From: an uncultured virus (IMG/VR IMGVR_UViG_3300028734_000015)
Lineage: Duplodnaviria; Heunggongvirae; Uroviricota; Caudoviricetes
DNA: 31,512 nucleotides
Reading direction: 5' to 3' (one strand)
Virus record (IMG/VR): IMGVR_UViG_3300028734_000015
In this document: piece after piece, positions 1 through 28,761 of the stretch
Layout of the letters: each line of letters starts with the position of its first letter
Numbering within the stretch: the stretch's first letter is position 1
Translations under genes and position numbers: made by a program
Notes under the pieces: generated by a model
Database searches by the model: none
Told to the model about the DNA's origin: nothing
Seen by the model: only the letters and a program-made list of their open reading frames with translations

Positions 1-446
1 AAAAGAATGCATTATCTATGATAGAGCATAATGTAAATCATTCTATGGTTAAAAACAATATACTTCCTGAGTCATTCAGTAGTAAGAATAGGATTGGAGC
101 ACAAGAGTATGGAGAAGCCGCATCAATGGCCGGTCAATATAATGGACTATATGCTAATGTAAAACCATCTAATATACTTACTTTTGATTTGAAAAACAAA
201 GAAATTATATCAAATATAGAAAGTGTAGTTGAGCCCACTGTAACTGATGTAGTTAATGAGCCAAATAAAGTAGAAGAGACTACATTCACAGTAGAGGATA
301 TGCCTAGTGATGGCATTGATAAAAAGCAAATAGAAACTATAAATGAAGGCTTTAAAAGGTCAGGATTAAAAGAAATGACAGAAGAACAATTTAATAGCAT
401 GGATAAAGACCTGCTAGAGTCACTTAAAGCCTGTTTTGGCGCATAA
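1..446 (+). CDS. 3' end of a large upstream protein (5'-truncated; possibly one of the big crAss-like virion cargo/RNAP-cluster proteins)
   Basis: The frame is open from the window edge (AAG AAT GCA TTA TCT ATG...). Acidic low-complexity C-terminus ends 10 nt before the next large gene. Confidence 0.6.
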   Translation, partial: KNALSMIEHNVNHSMVKNNILPESFSSKNRIGAQEYGEAASMAGQYNGLYANVKPSNILTFDLKNKEIISNIESVVEPTVTDVVNEPNKVEETTFTVEDMPSDGIDKKQIETINEGFKRSGLKEMTEEQFNSMDKDLLESLKACFGA

Positions 447-456
447 AATAATATAT

Positions 457-3400
457 ATGAAACATTGTGTTAATATACAATCAATTGCGTTTAAAACGCT
501 TGTAAATGAGTCTGAGACACACCCTATAATGCTTGCTGCAAAAATGGGTGTGTGGATGGATAGAAACAATACTGATGAGTGGCCAAATTTAGAGCAACTA
601 AACGAGTTAGGCAATTTAGATATGATAAGTCCAGTTGTCAGTAAATCTGGTTTCTATCCTAGTTTGCCAAATAAAAGTATTGATGACCTATATAATAAGA
701 ATTTATCGGTAATGCAAACTGCTGTAAATTCACTAAATAAGGAGTATTATAATAAGTTTATATCAAAGACAAAATTTAATCAATTAACTAGAAAGTATAA
801 TAAATTTGACAAATCAAACATAGAAGTATATATTGTAGATAATAAATCTGCAGATTTTATTAATCCTAGTGATGTTTCTGTTAGATTTAGAGTAAAAGAG
901 TCTTCAATTCAATTGGCATATGCCTCCGCAGTAAAGTCTAATAATGAAATTGCCAATACCCCATTTTCTGATTCTGAAAAGATAAGTATGGCTACTGATA
1001 AGCCTAAATCTATTATATCTCCAGAACAAACAGAGATAAATTTTGATGCTAAATTAAATTCATCTCAATTGGGAATAGCTAATCCAATGTCAAATTCTAC
1101 TATAAATGTAGTATCTAATATTGCCGATAGATTTAAAACTAGATTTGGAATTGGATATGAAGTAGTTTCACCAGAAGAAGCAGTTCGTTTATATAATGAA
1201 GGGTCTCCAGATAGTAAATACATAAAAGGTAACAATGGATTACTAGGATTCTATGATTCAGAAAAGAATATGTCTTATTTAGTATCAAATAGACTTAGTG
1301 CTAAAACTACTATGCACGAAATGTTTGGACATCCATTCTTAAATATGCTTAAGAACAACCCAGATTTAGTACATATATATAATCAGTTAGCATTAGAGGC
1401 AGTTGCTCATTCCGATGAACTGTCGGATATAACAAAATTATATAGTAACTATTCGTCTCCTGAAAAATTAGACGAACTAATAAACACTGTGTTAGAGGAT
1501 AAGTTTACTAGGAAGTTAAAAGAACTAAATAATATATCTACATCTGATGGAAAGTCTAAATCTAGATTTAGCAAATTACTTGATGCTATTAGTAATTATT
1601 TCAAACAATTTAGTAAATTCATTAATAAACTTTTCGATAAATCTAATCCAATAGAAGAAATCAGGCCTGATGCTACGATCGATAATCTTGCTGATTACTT
1701 GATATATGGAGATGGTAAATTAAACTTAATAGGGGGAGAGCAGGCAATAAGAACTGAGTCTGAAATAAGTAATCTATTATCTCATATCGATGCTAAACGT
1801 TTTGATGAGTTTAAACAAAGAAAAATAACACTTAATGAAGCTATTAAATTTAATGATGATTTAACTAGAGAATTAGTAAACCAAAATTTAGTTGATACCG
1901 GAATATATGATATAGATTTTACTAGGAAAAACTTACTATCTAAATTATCATATGTAGATTTTGATAATAAATCTATAGAATATTCTAGTGGGAATAAGAT
2001 GGCCACATTTGAATCTTATAATTTAGGGAATTCACTTTTAATCTCTAATATCTCCATAAAAGACAATACTAAAAATGTAGACATTCCATTTATTCTTAGA
2101 TCAATAGTTGAGTCTTTAGATAAATCAAATGCCAATGAGATTTTATTAAAAATAGATCCAAGTGATAATTTATACAAAGATATTCTTTCTGCATTTAAAG
2201 AAGATTCTATATATACTAAAAATGTCGATGGAGAACGATATGTTGCAATAAGTAAGAATAGCGAAACTATCTCAAATATGGCTTCTTTAGGTAGAAAGTC
2301 AAAATTGAGAGAGGCTGCTAAAATAGTAATACCTTCTGCAAAAGAAAAAGAATCTTCATTACCTACTCAGTTAGAAATAGCCACCAGTAATGCTGAGACA
2401 TTAATGCATAATATAAAAGTAGGATTAAATACAAATTTAAAAATACTTGAAAGGAATAAAAATACAGATGCACATACTTTTAATAGTATGAAAAATCTTA
2501 TAAATTCTATTGATAATGCAGATGCGGCTACAAGTGCTATCAGTTTCTTGAAATTTGCTGAGTTAGATGTTGCTAAAACTAGTTTAAAATTACTAGACAT
2601 ATCTAATGCAATGAAAAATAATGAGGATATAGCATCTTCTGATGTTATGTTTATTAATAGAGATTTTCTACCATTATACAAAAGCGTAATGGACTCTATT
2701 CGTACTATATATGAATCTAGAGATTTTGGAATATTTAATAGTCTACCAAAACACGTTGTAGATGACCTTGTTCATCAAGTATCTGGTATAAATAAGACTA
2801 TTGACGAAATGAGTAGGACAGTTAAGTCTGTTATAAACTATAATGCAACTAAAATATTTGCTAGTATAGCAGATGAAGCTAAATCTCCTACAATGAAGGA
2901 GGTTCTTAAGAAAAGTAATGAGGTCGATAGTGATTTATCATCTATGGGTGTATTCCTTGGTAGTTTGCAAAATAAAAGATCTGAGCACTTGAGGGCTTTG
3001 GATAAAATGATTGTAGATATACAGACTAATATAACTAAAATAGTAGCTACTGATGGTACTCTAAATGATTTAGCAAACTCTTTTACTAATATAAAAAGAA
3101 CTAATCCTATCGCTACTTATAATGAGTTTATGGAGCATGTTGATGGAAAAACTACTGGGTATATTACATCTGATCTATTAAGAGGAAAATTCAATAAAGA
3201 TATATCTGAATTTAGAAAGGCACTTGCTAAAAAGTACGGACTAACTAGTGATTATGCTACTCCATCTGACGCTAATGATTTTAAACAATACAATGAGGAG
3301 TTTGATAAATGGAAATCTGATCATTCAGAAAGAATGTTTTTGCCAGAATACTATAATGCTAAAAAAACTCTATCTTCTGAGGCCTCAGAAGCTCTAAATG

Positions 3401-6400
3401 ACGCAAAACAAAATATGGCTTCGTTTGGATTGGCGTTTAAGAATGCTGATGGAATTATAGATACTAGATTAATGACTCCGGCTGATCTTAACGCATATCA
3501 TGAACTTAGAATAATTAAGAATAATTTAGCATCTACGGTAAATCTCAATGGAGATGAGAAACTAAAAGGGAGTATTGAGAGGAATATAGCAGATGAAATA
3601 TCTGATTTCTACAAACGAATAAATAAGGGAATAAATTATAAAACTAAGATAGATCTTTTTAATGAAACATATAAAAATGTTGTGAAAGAGATGTCTCAGG
3701 ATGATGCAAATACATGGTTTAAAAATAATACTAAAGTTTCATTTACTCAAGAATGGTGGGATAAATTAACATCAATTGAAAAAAATCCACAACTACCAGC
3801 ATATGATGATTTGTATGAAAGAAGAAAAGCTATATTAAACACTTATAGAAACCCAGATACAATGGAAGTCCCTGCTGCTAGGTTAGAATCCATTGTAAAT
3901 AGTAATGGTGAGACTTTGGCTAATTTGGTAAAGAAAATTGATCTAGCTTTAAATAGTGCAAGAATTAAATATGGTCAAAAACCGGGATTGCAATTTAAAG
4001 ATATAGCAAAAATAGAACCTACTGATGAATATAAAAAGGCTTTAAGGGCTGCAGTGCAAGAAGCCTCTATGGGTAATACTAGAGCTGTTGCCGAGTTTGA
4101 TGAAAGGACTGCATATACAGATGGGAATGGATATAGACAATTATATTCTTTATGGACTAAATTATCTCCAAAAGATCAAAAAGATATATTTAATGAGCCT
4201 AATTCTCTATGGTCAGAAATGAGTCCAGATTCAGAGTATATAAATTCAAACTTTGATCCAGATTCGTCAGAAGAAGGTATGATTCCTAAAAGATCTTTAT
4301 ATGACAATAAACATGCATATGATCTAATTCAGAATTCTCCAGCAAAAAAAGATTTTCATGATAAGTTAATAGCTGGATATGCAAAAGCAAATGCTAATTA
4401 TGATTATATTCAACACCCATCTAAATATAGGTTAGCCCAGATACCTGGAAAGTTTCTAGATAGGGCAATACGTGGAGATAGATTTATGTCTGGATTTGCA
4501 TCGGCAATGAAAGATAAAGTAAAATGGAAGGCCTACGACAATATGGAAGGAGACTACGATACTAAAGGTGATTATAGGATAGATGGTAGTAAAGTAAGAT
4601 TTGTTCCTACTAAGTATCGCTCTATGCTAGAAGACAGAGATAGTATCTCTAGAGACGTATTAGGCGCATTTGCTGAGTACTATAAAGCCGCAGTAAATTT
4701 TAGAGAAATGTCTAAGCATTCAAATGACATTGATTTATTACTCGAATCCATAAAGAATCTATCCGTAAGAGATACTAGTAAAAAGGAGATAAAGGGTCCA
4801 GGACAAAGTAATATATATAACAGGGCTTCTAACTTTGTATCTAATACTGTATATGGAGATCAGATGGCTAATCAATATAATCTAAAGATACTTAGTAATA
4901 CTAGATCTATATCTATTGCAAAGCCAGTAAGAGATTTCATTAATTATGTAAGAAAGTTAATGCTTTCTGGAAATTTATTCTCTATAGTTGGTAATTTTTC
5001 TGCATCTGCGATCAATCTAAAGACCGAAGCTACGTGTGGTATATGGTTGAACAATGGAGGTCTATTAAAGGGCATGAGAGAGCTTACAATGTCTTTACCG
5101 AGCCTTATCGCTAGAGACAATGCTTCTTTCTCAAACAATAAACTTATATCCTTTATGAGGGCGTTTGAGGTTACTAAATCTCAACATAGAGACATGCAAA
5201 ATCTGCATGGATTCTCTCCAGTAAAGAACTTACTTTCTAATTTTCATTACGGTCCATATACTGCTGGGGATTTGGTAGTTAAAGGTCCAATGATGGTTGG
5301 AGTTCTTAGTAACTTTAGACCATTTGAAGGTAAATTTTACTCTAGAGAGGAATTCATAACAGAGAGGTTCCCTGGTAAAAGATCTGAAGGAGAATTGATA
5401 TTCGATTCTATTGAGGGTAATCTATATGATGCATTCAAAGTGGTTGATGGAAACCTTAAAATAGACCCTAAATATGCATCAATAATGAATGAAAAGACAT
5501 GGAATTATGTTGCAAACATAGTACATGATCTTGGAAGTAAATTAGACGGTACTTTGACTCAGGCTGATAAAGGTAAATTACATACTGATGCATTTGCTTC
5601 TGCTTTATTCTTAAATAGAGGGTGGATGCAGGTTGCTGCAGAGCAAAGATTTGCTACTAAGAAATATAATTATAGGAAACAACAAATGGCATCAGGTACT
5701 TTAATGACTCCTGGAGCGTCTGCTAAGATTATGATGAGTTTTTTAGCAGAGAAATTGACTGAAATGTCTAAATTTAATTTAACGCATTTAGGTAAAATGA
5801 GTCATATGCAAGATAAATACGAAGCAAATGACATATATAACTTCAGAAAAACACTTGGAGATATATCTAAATTAATATTGGTAGCTGCTGCCACATTGTT
5901 TGCCAAATCATTTGTAGGAAGTTCTGATGATGATAAAAAAAGATCTATAGAACAGTTTATTTTTACTCTATTAATGCGAACGGAAATGGAGTTAGGATCA
6001 AGTATGTCTCCTGCTGATGCATTCGGATTAATACAGTCTCCCACAACAGCTCAAGGGCCTATAACTGAGTTAAAAGAGGTATCTGATGGATTCTTTGATG
6101 GTACATTATTTGATCAAGTTCAAGGTGGTAGATATATGTACTATAAGAAATGGCAAAAGTCATTAATTAAATTAACTCCAGGGTATAAAAACTACTTTGA
6201 AAACTTTATTAAACCCGATTTAAAGGCACGTGAGTACTTTATGAGTAAGAATATGATTGGAATATATAACTTGACTCAGGGAGTTGCTAACATGTTTGAT
6301 AGTACGCACGATAATGCTGATAAGATTAAACAATTAGAGAAACAGAAGTTCGAGAATAAAAGTGTCATAGATAAAGGGGAAAATTCATATAAGCCACTTT

Positions 6401-6525
6401 TCTATCATGAAACTAAGGAAGATAAACTTAGACAGAGAGTCAATGCCAGAAAAAAAGCCAGAGGTTCTAAAATTCTGAATAGAAAAATAAAAATGTTGAA
6501 TAGAGACAGGAATTCCGGGTTGTGA
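457..6525 (+). CDS. Very large (~2020 aa) crAss-like virion cargo-type protein with a zincin-like metalloprotease motif
   Basis: 2029-aa ORF; the ATG at 457 (MKHCVN...) is preferred over the TTG at 436. Contains TMHEMFGHPFL (HExxxH-type) followed by ...LDELI. Size, last position in the + strand block and convergence with a replication module match crAss-like genome organisation. Confidence 0.7.
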   Translation: MKHCVNIQSIAFKTLVNESETHPIMLAAKMGVWMDRNNTDEWPNLEQLNELGNLDMISPVVSKSGFYPSLPNKSIDDLYNKNLSVMQTAVNSLNKEYYNKFISKTKFNQLTRKYNKFDKSNIEVYIVDNKSADFINPSDVSVRFRVKESSIQLAYASAVKSNNEIANTPFSDSEKISMATDKPKSIISPEQTEINFDAKLNSSQLGIANPMSNSTINVVSNIADRFKTRFGIGYEVVSPEEAVRLYNEGSPDSKYIKGNNGLLGFYDSEKNMSYLVSNRLSAKTTMHEMFGHPFLNMLKNNPDLVHIYNQLALEAVAHSDELSDITKLYSNYSSPEKLDELINTVLEDKFTRKLKELNNISTSDGKSKSRFSKLLDAISNYFKQFSKFINKLFDKSNPIEEIRPDATIDNLADYLIYGDGKLNLIGGEQAIRTESEISNLLSHIDAKRFDEFKQRKITLNEAIKFNDDLTRELVNQNLVDTGIYDIDFTRKNLLSKLSYVDFDNKSIEYSSGNKMATFESYNLGNSLLISNISIKDNTKNVDIPFILRSIVESLDKSNANEILLKIDPSDNLYKDILSAFKEDSIYTKNVDGERYVAISKNSETISNMASLGRKSKLREAAKIVIPSAKEKESSLPTQLEIATSNAETLMHNIKVGLNTNLKILERNKNTDAHTFNSMKNLINSIDNADAATSAISFLKFAELDVAKTSLKLLDISNAMKNNEDIASSDVMFINRDFLPLYKSVMDSIRTIYESRDFGIFNSLPKHVVDDLVHQVSGINKTIDEMSRTVKSVINYNATKIFASIADEAKSPTMKEVLKKSNEVDSDLSSMGVFLGSLQNKRSEHLRALDKMIVDIQTNITKIVATDGTLNDLANSFTNIKRTNPIATYNEFMEHVDGKTTGYITSDLLRGKFNKDISEFRKALAKKYGLTSDYATPSDANDFKQYNEEFDKWKSDHSERMFLPEYYNAKKTLSSEASEALNDAKQNMASFGLAFKNADGIIDTRLMTPADLNAYHELRIIKNNLASTVNLNGDEKLKGSIERNIADEISDFYKRINKGINYKTKIDLFNETYKNVVKEMSQDDANTWFKNNTKVSFTQEWWDKLTSIEKNPQLPAYDDLYERRKAILNTYRNPDTMEVPAARLESIVNSNGETLANLVKKIDLALNSARIKYGQKPGLQFKDIAKIEPTDEYKKALRAAVQEASMGNTRAVAEFDERTAYTDGNGYRQLYSLWTKLSPKDQKDIFNEPNSLWSEMSPDSEYINSNFDPDSSEEGMIPKRSLYDNKHAYDLIQNSPAKKDFHDKLIAGYAKANANYDYIQHPSKYRLAQIPGKFLDRAIRGDRFMSGFASAMKDKVKWKAYDNMEGDYDTKGDYRIDGSKVRFVPTKYRSMLEDRDSISRDVLGAFAEYYKAAVNFREMSKHSNDIDLLLESIKNLSVRDTSKKEIKGPGQSNIYNRASNFVSNTVYGDQMANQYNLKILSNTRSISIAKPVRDFINYVRKLMLSGNLFSIVGNFSASAINLKTEATCGIWLNNGGLLKGMRELTMSLPSLIARDNASFSNNKLISFMRAFEVTKSQHRDMQNLHGFSPVKNLLSNFHYGPYTAGDLVVKGPMMVGVLSNFRPFEGKFYSREEFITERFPGKRSEGELIFDSIEGNLYDAFKVVDGNLKIDPKYASIMNEKTWNYVANIVHDLGSKLDGTLTQADKGKLHTDAFASALFLNRGWMQVAAEQRFATKKYNYRKQQMASGTLMTPGASAKIMMSFLAEKLTEMSKFNLTHLGKMSHMQDKYEANDIYNFRKTLGDISKLILVAAATLFAKSFVGSSDDDKKRSIEQFIFTLLMRTEMELGSSMSPADAFGLIQSPTTAQGPITELKEVSDGFFDGTLFDQVQGGRYMYYKKWQKSLIKLTPGYKNYFENFIKPDLKAREYFMSKNMIGIYNLTQGVANMFDSTHDNADKIKQLEKQKFENKSVIDKGENSYKPLFYHETKEDKLRQRVNARKKARGSKILNRKIKMLNRDRNSGL

Positions 6526-18755: not shown

Positions 18756-19223
18756 TTAGTCTTCTTCTTCTTCGTACAACGGCAAGGCGGCAATGTTTGC
18801 CTTGTTTGCGTCGGTTAAGCACTTGATCTGATTGTTCAGATCGTTACGAATTTCTGTTAAGCGGGCAATTTCGCTTTCGTTTGCTGCGTTAGCAATATTG
18901 ATTGCTTCTTCATAAGATGGGAAATATGCGTCTGGTTCTGTTTCGAAATCGAATTTACCTCCGTCTTCCACAAATTTGTAGTTACTTGGAAAAGCGACTT
19001 TGTTGTCACCTCCGTTTACTATGAGAATCTCTGCTCCACCTGGAGCATGTGTTAATTTCACTTCGTTAACAACGAGTGCTTTTGGCATGCAAATGATAGC
19101 GAGTTTTTCGATACGCAATTTTTTGTCTTTTGCTTTGTGATTTATATCTACTGGTTTTGACACTAAATTGAAGATTGTTGCGCCTGCGAAAAGCCGCTGA
19201 GCTACTTTTTTATTATTTTTCAT
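18756..19223 (-). CDS. Hypothetical protein with a coiled-coil/acidic C-terminus
   Basis: 155-aa ORF on the operon strand. Confidence 0.75.
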   Translation of the reverse strand: MKNNKKVAQRLFAGATIFNLVSKPVDINHKAKDKKLRIEKLAIICMPKALVVNEVKLTHAPGGAEILIVNGGDNKVAFPSNYKFVEDGGKFDFETEPDAYFPSYEEAINIANAANESEIARLTEIRNDLNNQIKCLTDANKANIAALPLYEEEED

Positions 19224-19775
19224 TTTTTCTTTTATGTGTTTTAATATTGATTATTTACTGTGTTTTGAAAACGCTAATTGGGTCTTACTGAGAGTTTAAT
19301 CTGTTCCGACCATGTAAAATAAATTTAATAGTGAAGAGTTACACTCTCTTCCTGGACCCATTACTCTCCAAAGAGTTGGGCATGTAATCCTTATGTCGAT
19401 ATGAGATATCTGTACCTCAGAGTGCTACAACATCGAATTTACGATTCTAATTGCGCTCGTTTTGTTTTAAATAAAAGCGGTTGGTGAATAATGGGCTACT
19501 CCATCTATTCCAGTTATATTTATCATGTGTCACTGTTCTACTTTCTGCGATTGGCCGCATAGGTTTAGTAAATATAATAGCCGTCAATATTTGATAATTT
19601 ATAATTAAAAAGCCATTCTTGTATCGAAGAAAGGCGAAGAACATATTTTGAAAGATTTCGTAACGGATCTTTTATTAGCTCCTATAACAAATGAGGTTAT
19701 GGTATTCTAAAATCCTGTATTGTATCAAGTCTTGAATCTTGAGTTACTAATGATATGGTTTGCTAATTTGTTTCT

Positions 19776-19988
19776 TTAAATCCTATTTAGTGACTGACCT
19801 TCTATATCTCCATAAGCAAGGGGTAAGTAATCATATTCTTGAGTACCTACTTTGTGTACAGTTTGGACCTGCTTGTTCTGGGGCCTTCTCCTATTAAGGA
19901 CTGATTCTTCTATGAGAACCAGGTTTCTAAACTTCGGATTTGGTATTGAAATGTTTATCTTATCGTCTTGTATCGAATGATTCTTCAT
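19776..19988 (-). CDS. Small hypothetical protein
   Basis: 70-aa ORF with the leader TTAAAAACCAGAAAATAAAGAA-ATG typical of this genome. Confidence 0.55.
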   Translation of the reverse strand: MKNHSIQDDKINISIPNPKFRNLVLIEESVLNRRRPQNKQVQTVHKVGTQEYDYLPLAYGDIEGQSLNRI

Positions 19989-20009
19989 TTCTTTATTTTC
20001 TGGTTTTTA

Positions 20010-21209
20010 AGTGTTTGACCTTCCACTTGATTTATCCAGTATCCTCTGGTGCATGGATTGAATAGCCTCCGGCTTCCTTCTGCTCATCCTAAGACATAGG
20101 AGAACGTACTAATATGCTGTAAAAGCTTACTACTCTTTTACTGATGATATAATTTTTCCCAAATATCGTGGGTTTGAAGTTTTCCTGTCTGGCAGGTCGT
20201 ACTCCTAACTAGCCATGTTTAAGTTGCATATTATTACTGTAATTCGCCAGTTTCGGCTTTCGCCTTTCCGTTCATTATCCACACTTACAACGTGCGTTTC
20301 CTATCTACTAGTATAGGCACGGACAACTTTCGATTAACCTTGAAAGCATAACTAGGTTGTTGGTTTTTATTATTATTTCATTCATTTTAAAACCAGTAAT
20401 ATAATGATATGTTCGCTATCTAGGTCCATGGGCCTTTGGTTTTTTAATTGCCAAAAAGACAACTTCAACTATTGGATTTCCACCCCGCGCATTACTAGCC
20501 GGTTTATGTATTCTATTAATAGTTATTATTTTACGTTCTCCTTTAATCTTCCATCTTGCATGGGTTAATCACTGCTATTGCGGTGTAGGGAGCTAATGTT
20601 ATAGATCTATTGTGCTTCTGTATAACCTTGCATAGTTATGCTTTTGCGATCTATATTCGACATTTATACTGTTCCGTTCAGCGCGTGTCTATCTCGGAAT
20701 CTCTTTTTATCCATGAGCATGGCTTGCTTTTTATAGAAGCATAACTACGGCTTTTAGATTGTTCTATTCTTGCCTGGGCTGGCACCTTCGGGAGGCCTGG
20801 ACACCCACTTCTCGATACACTGAGAAGCTTAAACCTGTGACTATTTTAATTAGGTATAGATACCATTACCTTGTTTTACGCGTTTCTCCATTTAAGGATT
20901 ATGGTGACAAGGACGTCTACCATCAGTTTTCCATCGTTTTGGACATTTTATAATGCGGCAGTCCCCAGTCGCTTAATTACGTATCTCTAATATATTTCCC
21001 ACTCAAAGAGAGTTTACTTGTATATTATGGTAATCTTCATTTATTTGGCCCGCTTACAATTATGTTTGAATTGCTGCTGCTCCATCTATAAGTTTTCCAC
21101 GCTTATGATTCGATCACTCCCTTTGATTCTTTAAACTCGTTGGTTCGATGAGTGAACGAGTGCCTGATTGAAACCGCTTTGCCTGCGGTGCCGGTTGACC
21201 CGGTCGATT
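20010..21209 (-). ncRNA. Candidate large structured non-coding RNA
   Basis: About 1.2 kb with no credible ORF, visibly less AT-rich; GNRA hairpin GGC-GAAA-GCC and long-range 10-12-bp complementarities. Confidence 0.5.
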
Positions 21210-21554
21210 TTATTTAGAAACAATTACGCCTGTTTCTAGGTTTAACATTGAACTTTCATCTTCTGCCAATGAAATATCAATTAAGCCTGCTTTAATTTCC
21301 TCTGTAGATAATGTACACACTTTTCTGTGTATCCACATACTATATCCTGGAAGATTACTTACGACACTGTTTATTGCATTTTTTTTAACTAATATTTGAC
21401 CGTTTAGTCGGGCCAGGGATTCTTGTAATGGTTTTTCGAGGAATATATCCCCTCGGACATACGTGTCCAATATACCAATTACTGCCTGTCTTGCTTTAAG
21501 CAAATTGTTTAATCGCACGTTTAGCATACGAATTAGTTGCATTTGTTGTGTCAT
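21210..21554 (-). CDS. Hypothetical protein
   Basis: 114-aa ORF, tightly packed with its neighbours. Confidence 0.7.
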   Translation of the reverse strand: MTQQMQLIRMLNVRLNNLLKARQAVIGILDTYVRGDIFLEKPLQESLARLNGQILVKKNAINSVVSNLPGYSMWIHRKVCTLSTEEIKAGLIDISLAEDESSMLNLETGVIVSK

Positions 21555-21557
21555 TTC

Positions 21558-21962
21558 TTAGGATTGAGCGTCTGCCCAATAAGCTTTAACATAGATATCG
21601 AACTCGGTTTCAGTTAGGAATGGGCACTTTTCAAAGTCTTCTAGTTCTATGAATTGTGAGTCTGGTGTAGTATCCCAGATCCCATTAATCTTAAATCGAG
21701 GCCGAGACCAATCTATTTGTTTTGCATTAACGACTATTTCGTTCAAATTCTTTTCGACAGTAACATTAAGCCATCGAAGTTTTAAGAATTCGTCAAAATC
21801 AAAAGATGGGTTAAACCCCCGTGCTAAAACTGTTTCTACTTTCTCGGTTTTCTCTTTGGGTGAGTCCTCCGATAGAACTATTTGCCGTTTTCCTGATGAA
21901 TACATATACCCTGCGAAGAATATGGCCATAGAAAACATAGTTCTAAAAATCAGTTTTTTCAT
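21558..21962 (-). CDS. Hypothetical protein with an N-terminal signal/TM segment
   Basis: MKKLIFRTMFSMAIFFAGYMY hydrophobic N-terminus. Confidence 0.7.
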   Translation of the reverse strand: MKKLIFRTMFSMAIFFAGYMYSSGKRQIVLSEDSPKEKTEKVETVLARGFNPSFDFDEFLKLRWLNVTVEKNLNEIVVNAKQIDWSRPRFKINGIWDTTPDSQFIELEDFEKCPFLTETEFDIYVKAYWADAQS

Positions 21963-23556: not shown

Positions 23557-24105
23557 TTACTTTGATTGGTTAATATTTGATATTAAAACTTTTCTGTATC
23601 GATGTATGTAATGCTTAATGGTTCCTAGATCTAGTTTTAGCTTATCGGCTATTTCTTGATATTTTAACCCTTTTTGATACCTTAAGGTAAGCACCTGTTT
23701 TGATCGATCACTTAAACCCTTTAAGGCATTTTCAAATAAACCGTATTCTTCCTTTTTAATCATATCCTTTTCTGGATTACTATTATCAGTATAAATAAAC
23801 TCAGACAATAATTCATCGTCAATATACACATCATTTCTACGTTTATTCATACTGCGAATAAAGTCGATACTATGGTGATTAGCGATTGTCTTGAGCCACA
23901 TCTCAAATGAAATGTTTTTGGTAAATTTGTCAATGTTTTTAAAGGCTTTGAGGAATGTTTCCGATAATAAATCATCAGCGACATCTTTGTTCTTTACTAT
24001 TCTATAAATATTATTGTAGATTACTCCATGATAAGTATCATATAAAAAAGTAAATGCTTTTTGTGAGCCGCCTTTGGCAGCCTCAATTGCTTCGTTCGCA
24101 TTCAT
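23557..24105 (-). CDS. ECF-type sigma-70 family RNA polymerase sigma factor
   Basis: Region 2 (AFTFLYDTY...ADDLLSETFLKAF...FEMWLKTIANH) and region 4 HTH (LRYQKGLKYQEIADKL...GTIKHYIHR). Confidence 0.9.
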   Translation of the reverse strand: MNANEAIEAAKGGSQKAFTFLYDTYHGVIYNNIYRIVKNKDVADDLLSETFLKAFKNIDKFTKNISFEMWLKTIANHHSIDFIRSMNKRRNDVYIDDELLSEFIYTDNSNPEKDMIKKEEYGLFENALKGLSDRSKQVLTLRYQKGLKYQEIADKLKLDLGTIKHYIHRYRKVLISNINQSK

Positions 24106-24632: not shown

Positions 24633-24656
24633 TTTAAGTATTATTATTAATATTTG

Positions 24657-24730
24657 TGATCCAAGCAGGATTCAAACCTGCGACCCACACCTTAGAAGGG
24701 TGTTGCTCTATTCAACTGAGCTATTAGACC
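24657..24730 (-). tRNA. tRNA-Arg(UCU)
   Basis: GGTCTAA/TTGGATC acceptor; GCTC/GAGC D-stem; ACACC-CT TCT AA-GGTGT anticodon arm; GCAGG-TTTGAAT-CCTGC T-arm; CCA not encoded. Confidence 0.9.
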
Positions 24731-27103: not shown

Positions 27104-27854
27104 CGAAAATATTTTTAATCTATGTAAACATTTCTGCTCCACCTTACGTTATATGATTATATATAATATATTATGGAAAAACAATGTTTATTTTGTAACA
27201 AAACTTTTAATGCAGATCCCAGAGAGCTTAGGAGATGTCATGCCATTTATTGTAGCATTTCATGTTCTATTAAGCATCGAAATCAATTAATACCCCTACG
27301 CAAATGTAAATGTATTGTTTGCTTAAGCGAGTTTGAAAGTAAATCAACTAAAGCTAAATATTGTTGCAAAAAATGCAAAAGTATTCATTATAGGAGATTA
27401 ATTTCAACCGAGGTGAATGGTACTAGAAGAATTCAATCTATATTGTTGACTTTCCCTTGTGCAAATTGCGGCTGGGATTTATCTTCAAGAGACGTTCATC
27501 ATATAGTTCCATCTTGTTTTGGTGGCAAAAATGAATTAACTAATTTAATTACACTTTGTCCTAATTGCCATAGAATGGCTCATAGAAACCTCCTTTTGGA
27601 GGACAAGTTAAATGAACTTGTTTATTTTCGGACTATATCATCATCCGGCATTTCTGCTTAGGATGTTGGGCGCTTATCTGGTTATTAAGGAAATTCTATT
27701 CCTCCAGTAGTCTCTGCACTTTCAAGCGGTATACCGCAAGCTTAGCTCAGGATTGGCATGTAAAAAATGTTCATTTCTGAGCTTTTTTATTTAGCGTTCC
27801 CTGAATTCACCCAATTTTCGATATGTATTACTACATAAAGGACCCCTATAGTTG
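27104..27854 (-). mobile_element. Group I intron (IC3-like core) in the tmRNA T-loop
   Basis: 5' exon ends in U with P1 GACU^C/GGGUC; P AATTCAGGGAA (27807-27797); Q AATCCTGAGC (27754-27745); R GCAGAGACTA (27717-27708); S GATATAGTCC (27639-27630); P3 TTGGGTG/CGCCCAA; terminal omega-G at 27104. Confidence 0.9.
27173..27661 (+). CDS. HNH endonuclease (probable homing endonuclease) with N-terminal Cys-rich repeats, antisense within the intron
   Basis: CANCG...DVHHIVP...GGKNELTNLITLCPNCHRMAH; two CxxC...YCxxxC units; the only credible + strand gene in the - strand block. Confidence 0.9.
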   Translation: MEKQCLFCNKTFNADPRELRRCHAIYCSISCSIKHRNQLIPLRKCKCIVCLSEFESKSTKAKYCCKKCKSIHYRRLISTEVNGTRRIQSILLTFPCANCGWDLSSRDVHHIVPSCFGGKNELTNLITLCPNCHRMAHRNLLLEDKLNELVYFRTISSSGISA

Positions 27855-27907
27855 AGTCGAACCCTCGTCCAAACTACTAGTCTAATGACTTAGCAGCTGA
27901 TATGAGT

Positions 27908-28390
27908 TTAATATAGTATTTCGATTGTTTTTCGGCAATCTATATCCCATATTGTGAATTCGTGTCTGAAGAATCCTTGCTCTTCTGATACGTCAATTCT
28001 TATTCTGTCATCTGTCATGTAATTTAATACAACTCTTTTCCCTCGAAGTTCTTCACGTTTTGGGAGTTGTTTTTTTACGACAGTGTTATACATTTCAGTT
28101 GGAATACCTTTAGGCATATCCCCTTTTAAATAAAGGTAGATTTTTTTAAGATCATTCGTGTCTCTTTTGTGGAGTAGATCGATCATTAGTGAATGCTTTT
28201 GTTTGTAATTCAACTTTCTTAAAGATATATTATGCAATTTTGGTGTTATTTCCCAGTGATCTGATATGAACTTTTTAAGTTGGTCTGAATTAATTTTGGT
28301 AAATAAGTCTTTTACTGCATCGTATACTTCTGTTTTTGTTTTAGCCTCTCCAATCAAGGATATGGTAATTTCTTCTTGTTCTTTTGTCAT
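27908..28390 (-). CDS. Hypothetical protein
   Basis: 160-aa ORF ending immediately before the tmRNA acceptor piece. Confidence 0.75.
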   Translation of the reverse strand: MTKEQEEITISLIGEAKTKTEVYDAVKDLFTKINSDQLKKFISDHWEITPKLHNISLRKLNYKQKHSLMIDLLHKRDTNDLKKIYLYLKGDMPKGIPTEMYNTVVKKQLPKREELRGKRVVLNYMTDDRIRIDVSEEQGFFRHEFTIWDIDCRKTIEILY

Positions 28391-28531
28391 TATGACGATT
28401 ATTATTGATTAATAATGTTTATTAAAAGTAAAAATAAAGGTACTTTAGGTTCACGACATTGTCACGATTTAATTTCCCTTTATAGGCTATTGGTTAAACC
28501 AATAACTCCACCAATCGGCGTTAGCCAATAT

Positions 28532-28645: not shown

Positions 28646-28687
28646 CTTTTAATTGATTTAAATGATTTATAATACAGTTAATAATTG

Positions 28688-28761
28688 TAGCCAATATCGG
28701 AATTGAACCGATGACCTCTAGATTTTACAAACCTAGTGCTCTCCCACTGAGCTAATTGGCT
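28688..28761 (-). tRNA. Atypical tRNA: anticodon GUA (Tyr) on a 6-bp stem, or Thr(UGU) with a 9-nt loop
   Basis: AGCCAAT/ATTGGCT acceptor; GCTC-AGTGGGA-GAGC; CTAGG-TTTGTAAAA-TCTAG; short variable loop AGGTC; ATCGG-TTCAATT-CCGAT. Confidence 0.8.

What the first reader, a model, noticed from the sequence alone, without database searches (positions are those of the whole stretch)
20010..21209. ~1.2-kb ORF-free region with long-range pairing: candidate large novel ncRNA
Seen: an unusually long non-coding stretch in a compact genome. It has many local hairpins (CCGG-GTCAA-CCGG, CCGC-AGGCAAA-GCGG, GGC-GAAA-GCC at 20255-20264, CCATG-CT-CATGG). It also has distant complementarities: GGAGAACGTA (20099-20108) / TACGTTCTCC (20532-20541) and TAGTTATGCTT (20633-20643) / AAGCATAACTA (20737-20747). 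I found no group I core, group II domain V or RNase P signature. Established: large structured phage ncRNAs (GOLLD, ROOL) occur near tRNA clusters. Inference: a large RNA of unknown class.
Basis: partly seen in the sequence, partly recalled or inferred. Interest (0 to 1): 0.75.

Follow-up and report, generated by a model that had tools for sequence, protein, structure and literature searches.

The report
New large folded RNA locus, crAss-like phage
The gene-free stretch is real and is part of a roughly 2,000-base block that encodes intricately folded, evolutionarily conserved non-coding RNA found in no RNA catalogue, in a small group of uncultured crAss-like phages; what it does is unknown.

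Summary
The stretch free of ORFs of 80 aa or more runs 19224-21209 (1986 nt, next largest 746 nt) and stays closed under TAG, TGA or TAA recoding. The same gap (1.7-2.3 kb) sits in the same gene order in 13 lineages of uncultured crAss-like phages. RNA islands stay 64-89% identical where the neighbouring protein is only 25-39% identical. Covariation supports helices in three places: a pseudoknotted core at 20805-20926 (94.7% of cells paired against 73% shuffled, 14 of 21 pairs changed on both sides), a three-helix block at 19657-19753 and a 10-bp hairpin at 19485-19511. G-U outnumbers A-C 15 to 2, so the RNA is read from the minus strand. No Rfam family matches. The closest known analogue is the pair of abundant early long non-coding RNAs of phage phi14:2, with no detectable homology. 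One giant RNA or a tandem array is unresolved, and the function is unknown.

The parts
19224..21209 (-). Whole conserved gene-poor locus between the 114-aa gene (21210-21554) and the 155-aa gene (18756-19223)
   Evidence: It is the largest stretch of the window without an ORF of 80 aa or more. The same gap of 1.7-2.3 kb lies in the same gene order in all related loci that span it. No conserved peptide was found.
21174..21203 (-). Two 5' hairpins directly after the upstream stop codon: CCGG-GTCAA-CCGG and CCGC-AGGCAAA-GCGG-UUU
   Evidence: Read. They are kept in L001 and L009, and the second is also kept in L011. The sequence is conserved, so there is no covariation. They could be the end of the upstream transcript or part of the RNA.
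20941..20972 (-). Candidate H-type pseudoknot: GCGAC...GCCGC crossing GGAC...GUCC
   Evidence: Seen in 7 of 11 lineages. By eye it shows one compensatory change (C-G to U-A in L001), an A.C to G.U exchange, and A-U, G.U and G-C at one pair of the second stem. It was not tested with a counting tool.
20805..20926 (-). Core domain A, made of helices H1-H6. H1 crosses H2 (pseudoknot). H6 is the hairpin 20807-20828 with the conserved loop AGUGUAUC, inside the invariant UUUAAGCU...GAAGU
   Evidence: Model R1 finds it in all 11 lineages searched, with E from 2e-27 to 3e-5, and in L038 and L054. Pair counts: 94.7% paired against 73.0% shuffled, 14 of 21 pairs changed on both sides, 0 of 500 shuffles as high. 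H1: 83.6% against 72.2%, 1 of 500. Own-versus-cross duplex test: H2 0/5000, H6 6/5000, H5 42/5000.
20745..20804 (-). Variable stem that ends in a GGC-GAAA-GCC hairpin in 9 of 11 lineages. In the window and L009 the loop holds an insertion
   Evidence: The outer stem covaries by eye in the second group of lineages (GAUUG/CAAUC, AAUUG/CAAUU, GAUUA/UAAUC).
20711..20722 (-).
   Evidence: The stem changes to UCGC/GCGA (L011), CCAC/GUGG (L012) and UCGG/CCGA (L024). Own-versus-cross test: 26/5000.
20255..20264 (-). GGC-GAAA-GCC tetraloop hairpin
   Evidence: Present in the window, L001 and L009. It was not seen in the distant lineages.
20082..20105 (-). Hairpin HB1: GUUC-UCCUA-UGUCU-UAGGA-U-GAGC
   Evidence: The stem sequence differs between lineages (UCUCC/GGAGA, UCCUC/GAGGA, GCCCC/GGGGU). 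Own-versus-cross test: 28/5000.
20001..20028 (-). Conserved module AAGUG-GAAGGUCAAA-CACUU-AAAAACCA
   Evidence: Nearly identical in the window, L001, L009, L017, L023 and L024. No covariation test was made.
19823..19850 (-). Hairpin HC4, between the conserved GUACACAAAG and CCCUUGC. It lies inside the 70-aa ORF 19776-19988
   Evidence: Own-versus-cross duplex test: 0/5000, own mean -7.7 against cross mean -2.6 kcal/mol, n=10. The ORF has a 1-nt indel against L001 and no cross-clade peptide hit.
19657..19753 (-). Block D. It has hairpin HD1 (loop AUUCAAGA), outer helix HD3 and hairpin HD2 (loop CUCAUUU), with conserved UUUAGAAYACC and GCUAAUA strands
   Evidence: On a plain MAFFT alignment of 9 lineages: 85.0% paired against 65.8% shuffled, 13 of 16 pairs changed on both sides, covariation 0.533 against 0.207, 0 of 500 shuffles as high.
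19485..19511 (-). Hairpin HE, 10 bp with a conserved loop AGNAGC. It lies inside the 65-aa ORF 19447-19644
   Evidence: On a gap-free alignment of 10 lineages: 93.0% paired against 68.9% shuffled, 9 of 10 pairs changed on both sides. Own-versus-cross test: 0/5000.
19435..19447 (-). Hairpin GAAU-CGUAA-AUUC, a possible 3' terminator stem in relatives
   Evidence: The same loop has stems CUAAU/AUUAG (L012) and AUUAU/AUAAU (L023). A U-run follows in L012 and L017, but not in the window. The terminator scan did not list it.
19333..19351 (-). Hairpin GAAGAG-AGUGUAA-CUCUUC followed by an A/U-rich tract
   Evidence: L009 has GAUUGG/CCAAUC with the same loop. Only one comparison was made.
19239..19257 (-). 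Conserved UAAAUAAUCAAUAUUAAAA just upstream of the 155-aa gene. It probably belongs to that gene's expression signals, not to the RNA
   Evidence: Conserved in the window, L001, L011 and L012. It occurs once in the window.

Best explanation
Window 19224-21209 (minus strand) is a conserved locus for structured non-coding RNA in a small clade of uncultured crAss-like phages.

Shown:
- It is not protein-coding.
- It is inherited in a fixed gene order.
- Its sequence islands are far better conserved than the neighbouring proteins.
- At least three separate parts fold into helices that are kept by compensatory base changes, including at least one pseudoknot. These parts are core domain A, block D and hairpin HE.
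- The pairing pattern fits only the minus strand.

Inferred:
- The locus is transcribed with the surrounding early and replication genes. By analogy with phage phi14:2 this would be by the phage's injected RNA polymerase.
- It gives one or more stable, abundant RNAs that act in trans during infection as a scaffold or decoy, alone or with proteins, as is suspected for GOLLD and ROOL.
- A composite is slightly more likely than one 1.9-kb molecule: a row of two or more separately folding RNAs, or one transcript cut into pieces.
For: Non-coding:
- No ORF of 60 aa or more lies in 20007-21209, and none of 80 aa or more in 19224-21209.
- Recoding opens none.
- Across the 11 lineages the longest stop-to-stop frames are 62-97 aa at varying places. 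The 61 cross-clade peptide hits are 13-56 aa, fall on both strands and in several frames, and lie over the nucleotide islands.

Conservation:
- blastn matches the region in loci whose 358-aa neighbour is only 25-39% identical.
- The gene order is the same in every locus that spans the gap.

Structure:
- A6: 94.7% of 209 cells paired against 73.0% shuffled; 14 of 21 pairs changed on both sides; slid controls 36-45% paired.
- A7, a MAFFT alignment not fitted to the structure: 85.0% against 65.8%; 13 of 16 pairs changed on both sides.
- A9: 93.0% against 68.9%; 9 of 10 pairs changed on both sides.
- Pseudoknot helix H1, which was not in the model: 83.6% against 72.2%, 1 of 500 shuffles as high.
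- Own-versus-cross duplex tests gave 0/5000 for H2, HC4 and HE.

Strand:
- G.U against A.C cells are 15:2 and 5:2.
- One G-U pair is invariant in 11 of 11 lineages.
- GAAA tetraloops read correctly only on this strand.

Precedent:
- phi14:2 transcribes two long early intergenic regions above most genes, from the earliest time point and without later decline. I read passages of bioRxiv 10.1101/2020.03.07.982082.
- Its record has a 1.7-kb CDS-free stretch at 2905-4601.
Against: - No transcript data.
- No promoter or terminator bounding the RNA was found by the consensus scans.
- No homology to the phi14:2 regions was found, so that precedent is only an analogy.
- The central part (about 20175-20695) is poorly conserved outside the nearest relatives.
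- Sliding-window RNAalifold on three close relatives gave only modest z-scores, -0.2 to -4, and they were similar on both strands.
- The family is small, 13 lineages, so the covariation statistics rest on few sequences, some of them related.
- Nothing in the data points to a particular function.
Confidence: 0.8

Rival explanations
1. The whole locus is one giant ornate RNA of about 1.8-1.9 kb whose 5' and 3' ends are brought together. It would be larger than any known phage or bacterial ncRNA apart from rRNA.
For: - The modules are colinear in all lineages.
- The scans found no sense-strand terminator inside the gap in the window or in L012, L017 or L027.
- A scan for lineage-specific long-range complementarity put RNA positions 56 and 1862 among its top pairs. 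Own mean was -11.6 against cross mean -8.6 kcal/mol, with 0/3000 permutations as good. One A-U to G-C exchange separates the window from L009.
Against: - The 56 to 1862 pairing is strong only in the window clade, L024 and L027. In the window itself it has two internal mismatches where L009 pairs.
- A contiguous-helix test of the 5' against the 3' ends was barely above cross-lineage controls, and the positions were inconsistent (39/5000).
- The long-range scan covered only first windows up to RNA position 546.
- Modules come and go. A 3' module is present in L011, L012, L017, L023, L024 and L027 but absent in the window and L001. Hairpin H3 is absent in L011 and L012.
- phi14:2 has two RNAs, not one.
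- Earlier notes of this scan describe arrays of separate RNAs in other crAss-like phages (unchecked leads).
Confidence: 0.3
2. The structured region is a cis-acting leader of the downstream replication genes. It would be an antitermination, attenuation or processing region rather than a trans-acting RNA.
For: - It lies directly upstream of, and is co-oriented with, the 155-aa gene and the helicase, primase and Sak4 genes.
- No promoter of its own was detected.
- In some relatives a hairpin followed by a U-run lies 100-250 nt before the next gene. That could be an attenuator.
Against: - A leader of 1.7-2.3 kb with a dozen or more covarying helices is far beyond known cis-regulators, and is costly in a genome that is 79-83% covered by long ORFs.
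- The structure begins immediately after the upstream stop codon, not near the downstream start codon.
- The analogous phi14:2 regions accumulate as abundant stable RNAs.
Confidence: 0.1
3. The region is the phage replication origin. The conserved hairpins would act in DNA or in an origin-priming transcript.
For: - It borders the replication module.
- It is a long non-coding stretch with inverted repeats above chance.
Against: - GC is higher, not lower, than the flanks, and neither the GC nor the AT skew turns at the site.
- No iterons or tandem repeats were found; only short two-copy matches.
- G.U pairs outnumber A.C 15:2 and 5:2, and the GNRA loops are strand-specific. This points to RNA rather than duplex or cruciform DNA.
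Confidence: 0.07
4. The region is a decayed or recoded protein gene, or a large self-splicing intron that splits the flanking ORFs.
For: - crAss-like phages are known for introns and recoding. I read passages of bioRxiv 10.1101/2020.07.20.212944.
- The window has a group I intron at 27611-27864.
Against: - No frame opens under TAG, TGA or TAA recoding.
- No conserved peptide was found.
- No group I or II model hit at E up to 10 in the region. The same library found the true intron at 75.8 bits.
- The gap is present in all 13 lineages at the same site, unlike sporadic mobile introns.
- No longer, fused form of the upstream 114-aa protein was found. This is weak evidence.
Confidence: 0.03

Closest known systems
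Abundant early long non-coding RNAs of Cellulophaga crAss-like phage phi14:2 (g004-g005 and g005-g006 junctions; Drobysheva et al., bioRxiv 10.1101/2020.03.07.982082; passages read)
   Same: - It is also a crAss-like phage.
- It has a CDS-free stretch of similar size (about 1.7 kb, record positions 2905-4601) among small early genes upstream of the replication genes.
- It is co-oriented with those genes.
- Its function is unknown.
   Different: - No sequence or structure similarity was detected. The best R1 hit has E 0.18 with broken pairs. blastn and nhmmer gave only chance-level or no hits, and 6 of 7 conserved motifs are absent.
- Expression is shown for phi14:2 and not for this locus.
- That paper gives no structure, as far as the passages I read show.
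GOLLD and ROOL large ornate phage/prophage RNAs (Rfam families; Kretsch et al., Nature 2025, PMC12286853; passages read)
   Same: - They are large, phage-borne, pseudoknot-rich non-coding RNAs of unknown function, with GNRA loops and conserved cores beside variable parts.
- GOLLD likewise has a universally conserved part and a less conserved part.
   Different: - No match to either model, even at E up to 10.
- This locus is not beside a tRNA island; the nearest tRNA is 3.4 kb away.
- It is 2-3 times longer than GOLLD (over 800 nt) or ROOL (659 nt in the studied example) if it is one molecule.
- It occurs only in lytic-type crAss-like contigs and in none of 185,579 prokaryote genomes by two motif scans.
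- Self-assembly has not been tested.
Group I intron in the same window (27611-27864, Rfam RF00028)
   Same: It is a structured RNA on the same strand of the same phage, with pseudoknotted helices and GNRA-type loops.
   Different: That element matches the family model at 75.8 bits. The finding matches it nowhere, and it separates complete genes, each with its own stop and start codon.

Membership tests
GOLLD / ROOL / OLE / HEARO / raiA (large bacterial and phage ncRNA families in Rfam 15) | Match to the family covariance model at or near the gathering score | tested here: not met
   No hit at gathering in the window or in 7 related loci. No hit at E up to 10, 5 or 1 in the region or in 4 further loci. 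That these families are in Rfam 15 is recalled, apart from GOLLD, ROOL and OLE, which PMC12286853 says were taken from Rfam.
Group I intron | Match to RF00028 (the P3-P9 core) | tested here: not met
   No hit in 18900-21600 at E up to 10 or 5. Positive control: the same library finds the intron at 27611-27864 with 75.8 bits.
Group I / group II intron | It interrupts a gene whose exons join into one reading frame, and is sporadic among relatives | tested here: not met
   The upstream ORF ends with its own stop and the downstream ORF has its own start, in all loci. The gap is present in every lineage. No longer, fused form of the 114-aa protein was found (weak evidence).
Group II intron | Domain V / D1-D4 models of Rfam | tested here: not met
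   No hit.
RNase P RNA, tmRNA, 6S, SRP, rRNA | Match to the Rfam model | tested here: not met
   No hit in the locus. A permuted tmRNA was found elsewhere, in L012. This shows that the scan can find such RNAs in these phages.
phi14:2 early long non-coding RNAs | A long CDS-free stretch among early genes of a crAss-like phage, on the same strand as those genes | tested here: met
phi14:2 early long non-coding RNAs | Sequence or structure homology to the phi14:2 intergenic regions | tested here: not met
   R1 with filters off: best hit E 0.18 with unpaired stems. blastn at word size 7 gave only chance-level hits, the nhmmer profile gave none, and the conserved motifs are absent. Only domain A was tested with a covariance model.
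phi14:2 early long non-coding RNAs | An abundant transcript from the earliest time point that does not decline | not testable with these tools
Replication origin | AT-rich unwinding region, repeated initiator sites, and a turn in the skew | tested here: not met
   GC is 0.38-0.40, above the flanks, and the cumulative skew does not turn. No repeat family was found beyond short two-copy matches.
Protein-coding gene (standard or recoded) | An open frame conserved as a peptide among relatives | tested here: not met

The most novel reading that the evidence does not exclude
The whole 1.9 kb is a single RNA, the largest ornate non-ribosomal RNA known from a phage. Its ends would be paired like an rRNA processing stem. 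It would be built from several pseudoknotted domains carrying GNRA loops and conserved self-complementary single-stranded motifs (ACGU, GUAC, AAGCUU; read from the alignments, inference only). Like GOLLD and ROOL it would assemble into an RNA-only multimer, one that crAss-like phages make early in infection.
Probability: 0.2. Interest if true: 0.85.

Novelty: new variant of a known kind. Interest (0 to 1): 0.68.

Why it matters
crAss-like phages are among the most abundant viruses of Bacteroidota hosts, and most of their early genes are unexplained.

- **What this locus adds.** One cultured member is reported to make very abundant early non-coding RNAs of unknown function. In the passages I read, no structure is given for them. 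Here a different crAss-like clade devotes about 2% of a roughly 95-kb genome to RNA whose fold is under clear selection. That argues such RNAs are a recurrent and functional part of the infection programme.
- **What it makes testable.** The work gives a defined core (R1, 124 positions), a set of 13 natural variants, and concrete helices to mutate or probe.
- **Why structural biologists may care.** If the RNA is one molecule or self-assembles, it extends the small list of large ornate RNAs (GOLLD, ROOL, OLE) that have become targets for cryo-EM.

Tried and rejected
- **Recoded CDS.** Rejected.
- **Small ORFs 19776-19988 and 19447-19644 as real genes.** Rejected. They have no cross-clade peptide hits and a frame-shifting indel against L001, and covarying helices lie inside both.
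Rejected.
- **GenBank phages.** blastn with the 1.2 kb gave no match. tblastn with both flanking proteins gave no match.
- **Nearest held virus record G001 and crAss-like phage cr10_1.** No match to the region or to R1. G001 is a 57%-complete fragment, so this says little.
- **Bacterial and archaeal genomes.** Two motif scans gave 0 hits.
- **RNAalifold on the plain MAFFT alignment of domain A.** It recovered only part of the structure, because the variable helices were misaligned.
- **Structure-aware MAFFT (Q-INS-i).** It could not run because MXSCARNA is missing.
- **Sliding-window RNAalifold z-scores on three close relatives.** Weak, and similar on both strands.
- **Helix H4 (AUGC/GCAU).** Not significant in the own-versus-cross test (1460/5000), although 4 of its 5 pairs changed on both sides in the fitted alignment.
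- **Hairpin HC2.** Not significant (2376/5000), probably because of misalignment.
- **Promoters.** The host-type motif TAnnTTTG (recalled consensus) has no minus-strand match between 13709 and 25601. The sigma-70 scan was at or below the shuffle level.
- **A terminal 5'-3' stem.** Inconclusive. duplexfold on long windows was uninformative.
- **The 358-aa neighbour.** No Pfam or PHROG hit. The AlphaFold model (pLDDT 73.6, all-helical) has no PDB match at E of 0.001 or better.
- **The motif GTCCAAAYKGTACACAAA.** It matched 16 contigs. Of the 7 not seen before, 6 are unrelated chance matches and 1 (L054) is a family member.
Full report
**What the window is.** The window is part of a phage genome. 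From about 6.6 kb to the right-hand end nearly all genes lie on the minus strand. They include an exonuclease, a primase, a Sak4-like annealing protein, a DnaB-like helicase and a sigma-factor-like protein. The primase is 50-56% identical to those of Crassvirales phages such as cr10_1. Two tRNA genes (24656-24730 and 28687-28761) and a group I intron (27611-27864) lie on the same strand.

**Checking the observation.**
- The stretch 20007-21209 has no ORF of 60 aa or more. None opens when TAG, TGA or TAA is read as sense.
- The gap is larger than flagged. The longest stretch of the window without an ORF of 80 aa or more is 19224-21209 (1986 nt), and the next longest is 746 nt.
- The two distant complementarities are real, and there is a third.
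- Three perfect inverted repeats of 11 nt or more were found, against 0.17 expected. None of 300 shuffles reached three.
- These long-range pairs are not kept in the two nearest relatives. Paired positions in L001 and L009 are 5/10 and 5/10, 6/11 and 3/11, and 8/12 and 9/12. They are not the conserved architecture.

**Relatives.**
- The 358-aa protein encoded 0.8 kb upstream has 12 relatives, at 100% down to 28% identity.
- With their alignment and with DNA motifs I collected related loci from viral and metagenome contigs. They fall into 13 lineages: 11 are used in most analyses, and L038 and L054 were added later.
- Every locus that spans the site has the same order. Genes of about 139, 340, 138 and 118 aa come first. 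A gap of 1.7-2.3 kb without long ORFs follows. Genes of about 157, 174 and 152 aa come after it.
- blastn with the flagged 1.2 kb finds matches of 64-89% identity in all these loci. That includes loci whose neighbouring protein is only 25-39% identical.
- GenBank phages hold neither the region nor the flanking proteins.
- Two motif scans of 185,579 prokaryote genomes found nothing.

**Not coding.**
- In the 11 gaps the longest stop-to-stop frames are 62-97 aa, at varying positions and on either strand.
- The 61 cross-clade peptide hits are 13-56 aa. They occur in several frames and on both strands over the same nucleotide islands.
- The window's two small ORFs (19776-19988, 70 aa; 19447-19644, 65 aa) have no cross-clade peptide hit.
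- The first has a 1-nt indel against L001. Covarying helices lie inside both.

**Structure: core domain A.** The best-conserved island, domain A at window 20805-20926, holds these helices:
- a fully variable helix H2;
- a hairpin H3;
- helices H4 and H5;
- a hairpin H6 with the conserved loop AGUGUAUC, inside the invariant UUUAAGCU...GAAGU;
- a helix H1 whose 3' strand lies between the two strands of H2. H1 and H2 therefore form a pseudoknot.

A covariance model built from six lineages (R1) finds the domain in all 11 lineages, with E from 2e-27 to 3e-5. On the resulting alignment:
- 94.7% of 209 cells pair, against 73.0% in shuffles;
- 14 of 21 pairs have changes on both sides;
- slid controls pair at only 36-45%;
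- all six pairs of H2 have compensatory changes, with three or four pair types each.

That alignment was fitted to the model, which favours pairing. The double changes and the slid controls do not depend on the fitting. H1 was not in the model and still pairs at 83.6% against 72.2%, with 1 of 500 shuffles as high. An alignment-free test pairs each lineage's 5' window with its own or with another lineage's 3' window. It gave 0/5000 for H2, 6/5000 for H6, 42/5000 for H5, 213/5000 for H1, and no signal for H4.

**Structure: beyond the flagged coordinates.**
- Block D (19657-19753), on a plain MAFFT alignment of nine lineages, pairs at 85.0% against 65.8%. Thirteen of 16 pairs have changes on both sides.
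- Hairpin HE (19485-19511), on a gap-free alignment of ten lineages, pairs at 93.0% against 68.9%. Nine of 10 pairs have changes on both sides.
- Several further helices covary by eye: a small pseudoknot at 20941-20972, HC1, HD-type stems and the terminal hairpins. These were not formally tested.
- The central part (about 20175-20695) is conserved only among the nearest relatives and carries large insertions and deletions.

**Strand.** In the supported helices, G.U cells outnumber A.C cells 15 to 2 and 5 to 2. One G-U pair is invariant in 11 of 11 lineages. The GAAA tetraloops read as such only on the minus strand. The RNA is therefore co-oriented with the flanking genes.

**What it is not.**
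- No Rfam 15 family matches, either at gathering or at loose E-values. This covers the window and 11 related loci.
- The same scans found the group I intron, the tRNAs and a permuted tmRNA elsewhere.
- An origin of replication is unlikely. GC is above the flanks, the skews do not turn, there are no iterons, and the pairing is strand-specific.
- An intron is unlikely. The flanking genes are complete, the gap is universal in the clade, and no fused form was found.

**One RNA or several.** This is open.
- For one RNA:
  - The order is colinear.
  - The scans found no sense-strand terminator inside the gap.
  - There is a candidate pairing of RNA positions about 56 and 1862 (0/3000).
- Against one RNA:
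  - That pairing is uneven across lineages, and a stricter test was weak (39/5000).
  - Modules are gained and lost between lineages.
  - phi14:2 has two such RNAs.
  - Earlier notes of this scan describe arrays of separate RNA genes in other crAss-like phages. These are unchecked leads.
- My long-range scan covered only part of the locus.

**Comparison with what is known.**
- The nearest published analogue is in Cellulophaga phage phi14:2. Two long early intergenic regions there are transcribed above most genes and persist through infection, and their function is undetermined. I read passages of bioRxiv 10.1101/2020.03.07.982082.
- Its record has a 1.7-kb CDS-free stretch at 2905-4601.
- I found no homology between that stretch and this family, so it is an analogy of place and kind only.
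- GOLLD and ROOL are similar in kind. They are large, ornate, phage-borne RNAs of unknown function that form RNA-only cages. I read passages of PMC12286853. They are unrelated to this family by model search.
- Three literature searches found no description of a structured RNA family of this sort in crAss-like phages.
- A term search of the Yutin et al. preprint found no occurrence of non-coding, noncoding, intergenic or ncRNA. Its supplements were not seen.

**How it most likely works.**
- Shown: selection acts on an RNA fold on the minus strand, across at least 1.45 kb (20926 to 19485).
- Inferred: the locus is transcribed early with its neighbours. It yields one or more stable RNAs that act in trans as a scaffold or decoy.
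- The neighbouring proteins gave no clue.

**Verdict.** It is a new family of large structured phage RNA. The kind was already hinted at in print for crAss-like phages and by GOLLD and ROOL. Its function, transcript boundaries and single-or-modular nature remain open.

Noticed in passing
window 27611-27864 (-) and 27167-27661 (+): A group I intron (Rfam RF00028, 75.8 bits) lies just downstream of the 166-aa frame 27908-28408 (-). A 164-aa frame on the opposite strand overlaps the intron's 3' part. That frame has Cys-rich and His-rich motifs that look like an HNH homing endonuclease. I did not work out which gene is interrupted.
   Followed up: partly
L012:2193-2375 (+): A permuted tmRNA (RF04321, 55.7 bits, gathering score 47) lies about 3.6 kb upstream of the 358-aa gene homologue in one related phage. 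No such hit was found in the window.
   Followed up: no
L001:2413-2604 versus L007: Two contigs that are 99% identical across the locus differ by an insertion or deletion of about 163 nt in the variable central part. Peripheral parts of the RNA locus therefore turn over quickly.
   Followed up: no
window 20840-20898 and about 19885-19905; also 21075-21090 and 19495-19506: Short motifs recur in the 5' and 3' halves of the locus on the same strand. They include the hairpin AUCCUUAAAUGGAGAAA / GUCCUUAAUAGGAGAAG, GAUGGAGCAGC / GAUGGAGUAGC, GGCGAAAGCC and UAGUUAUGCUU. They could be repeated binding or docking modules, or chance.
   Followed up: partly
L041 (NC_021806.1) 2905-4601: The phi14:2 record carries nine 'removed' small-ORF features in a 1.7-kb stretch between g004 and g006 that now has no CDS. 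This stretch matches the published abundant early non-coding RNAs. I did not examine its structure.
   Followed up: partly
window 436-6525 (+): A 2029-aa ORF on the opposite strand has no PHROG hit. In a crAss-like phage it may be one of the giant virion or RNA-polymerase-type proteins. Not examined.
   Followed up: no
window 23557-24105 (-): A 182-aa protein matches phage RNA polymerase sigma-factor families (phrog_1740, E 9e-30). It lies 2.3 kb upstream of the RNA locus.
   Followed up: no
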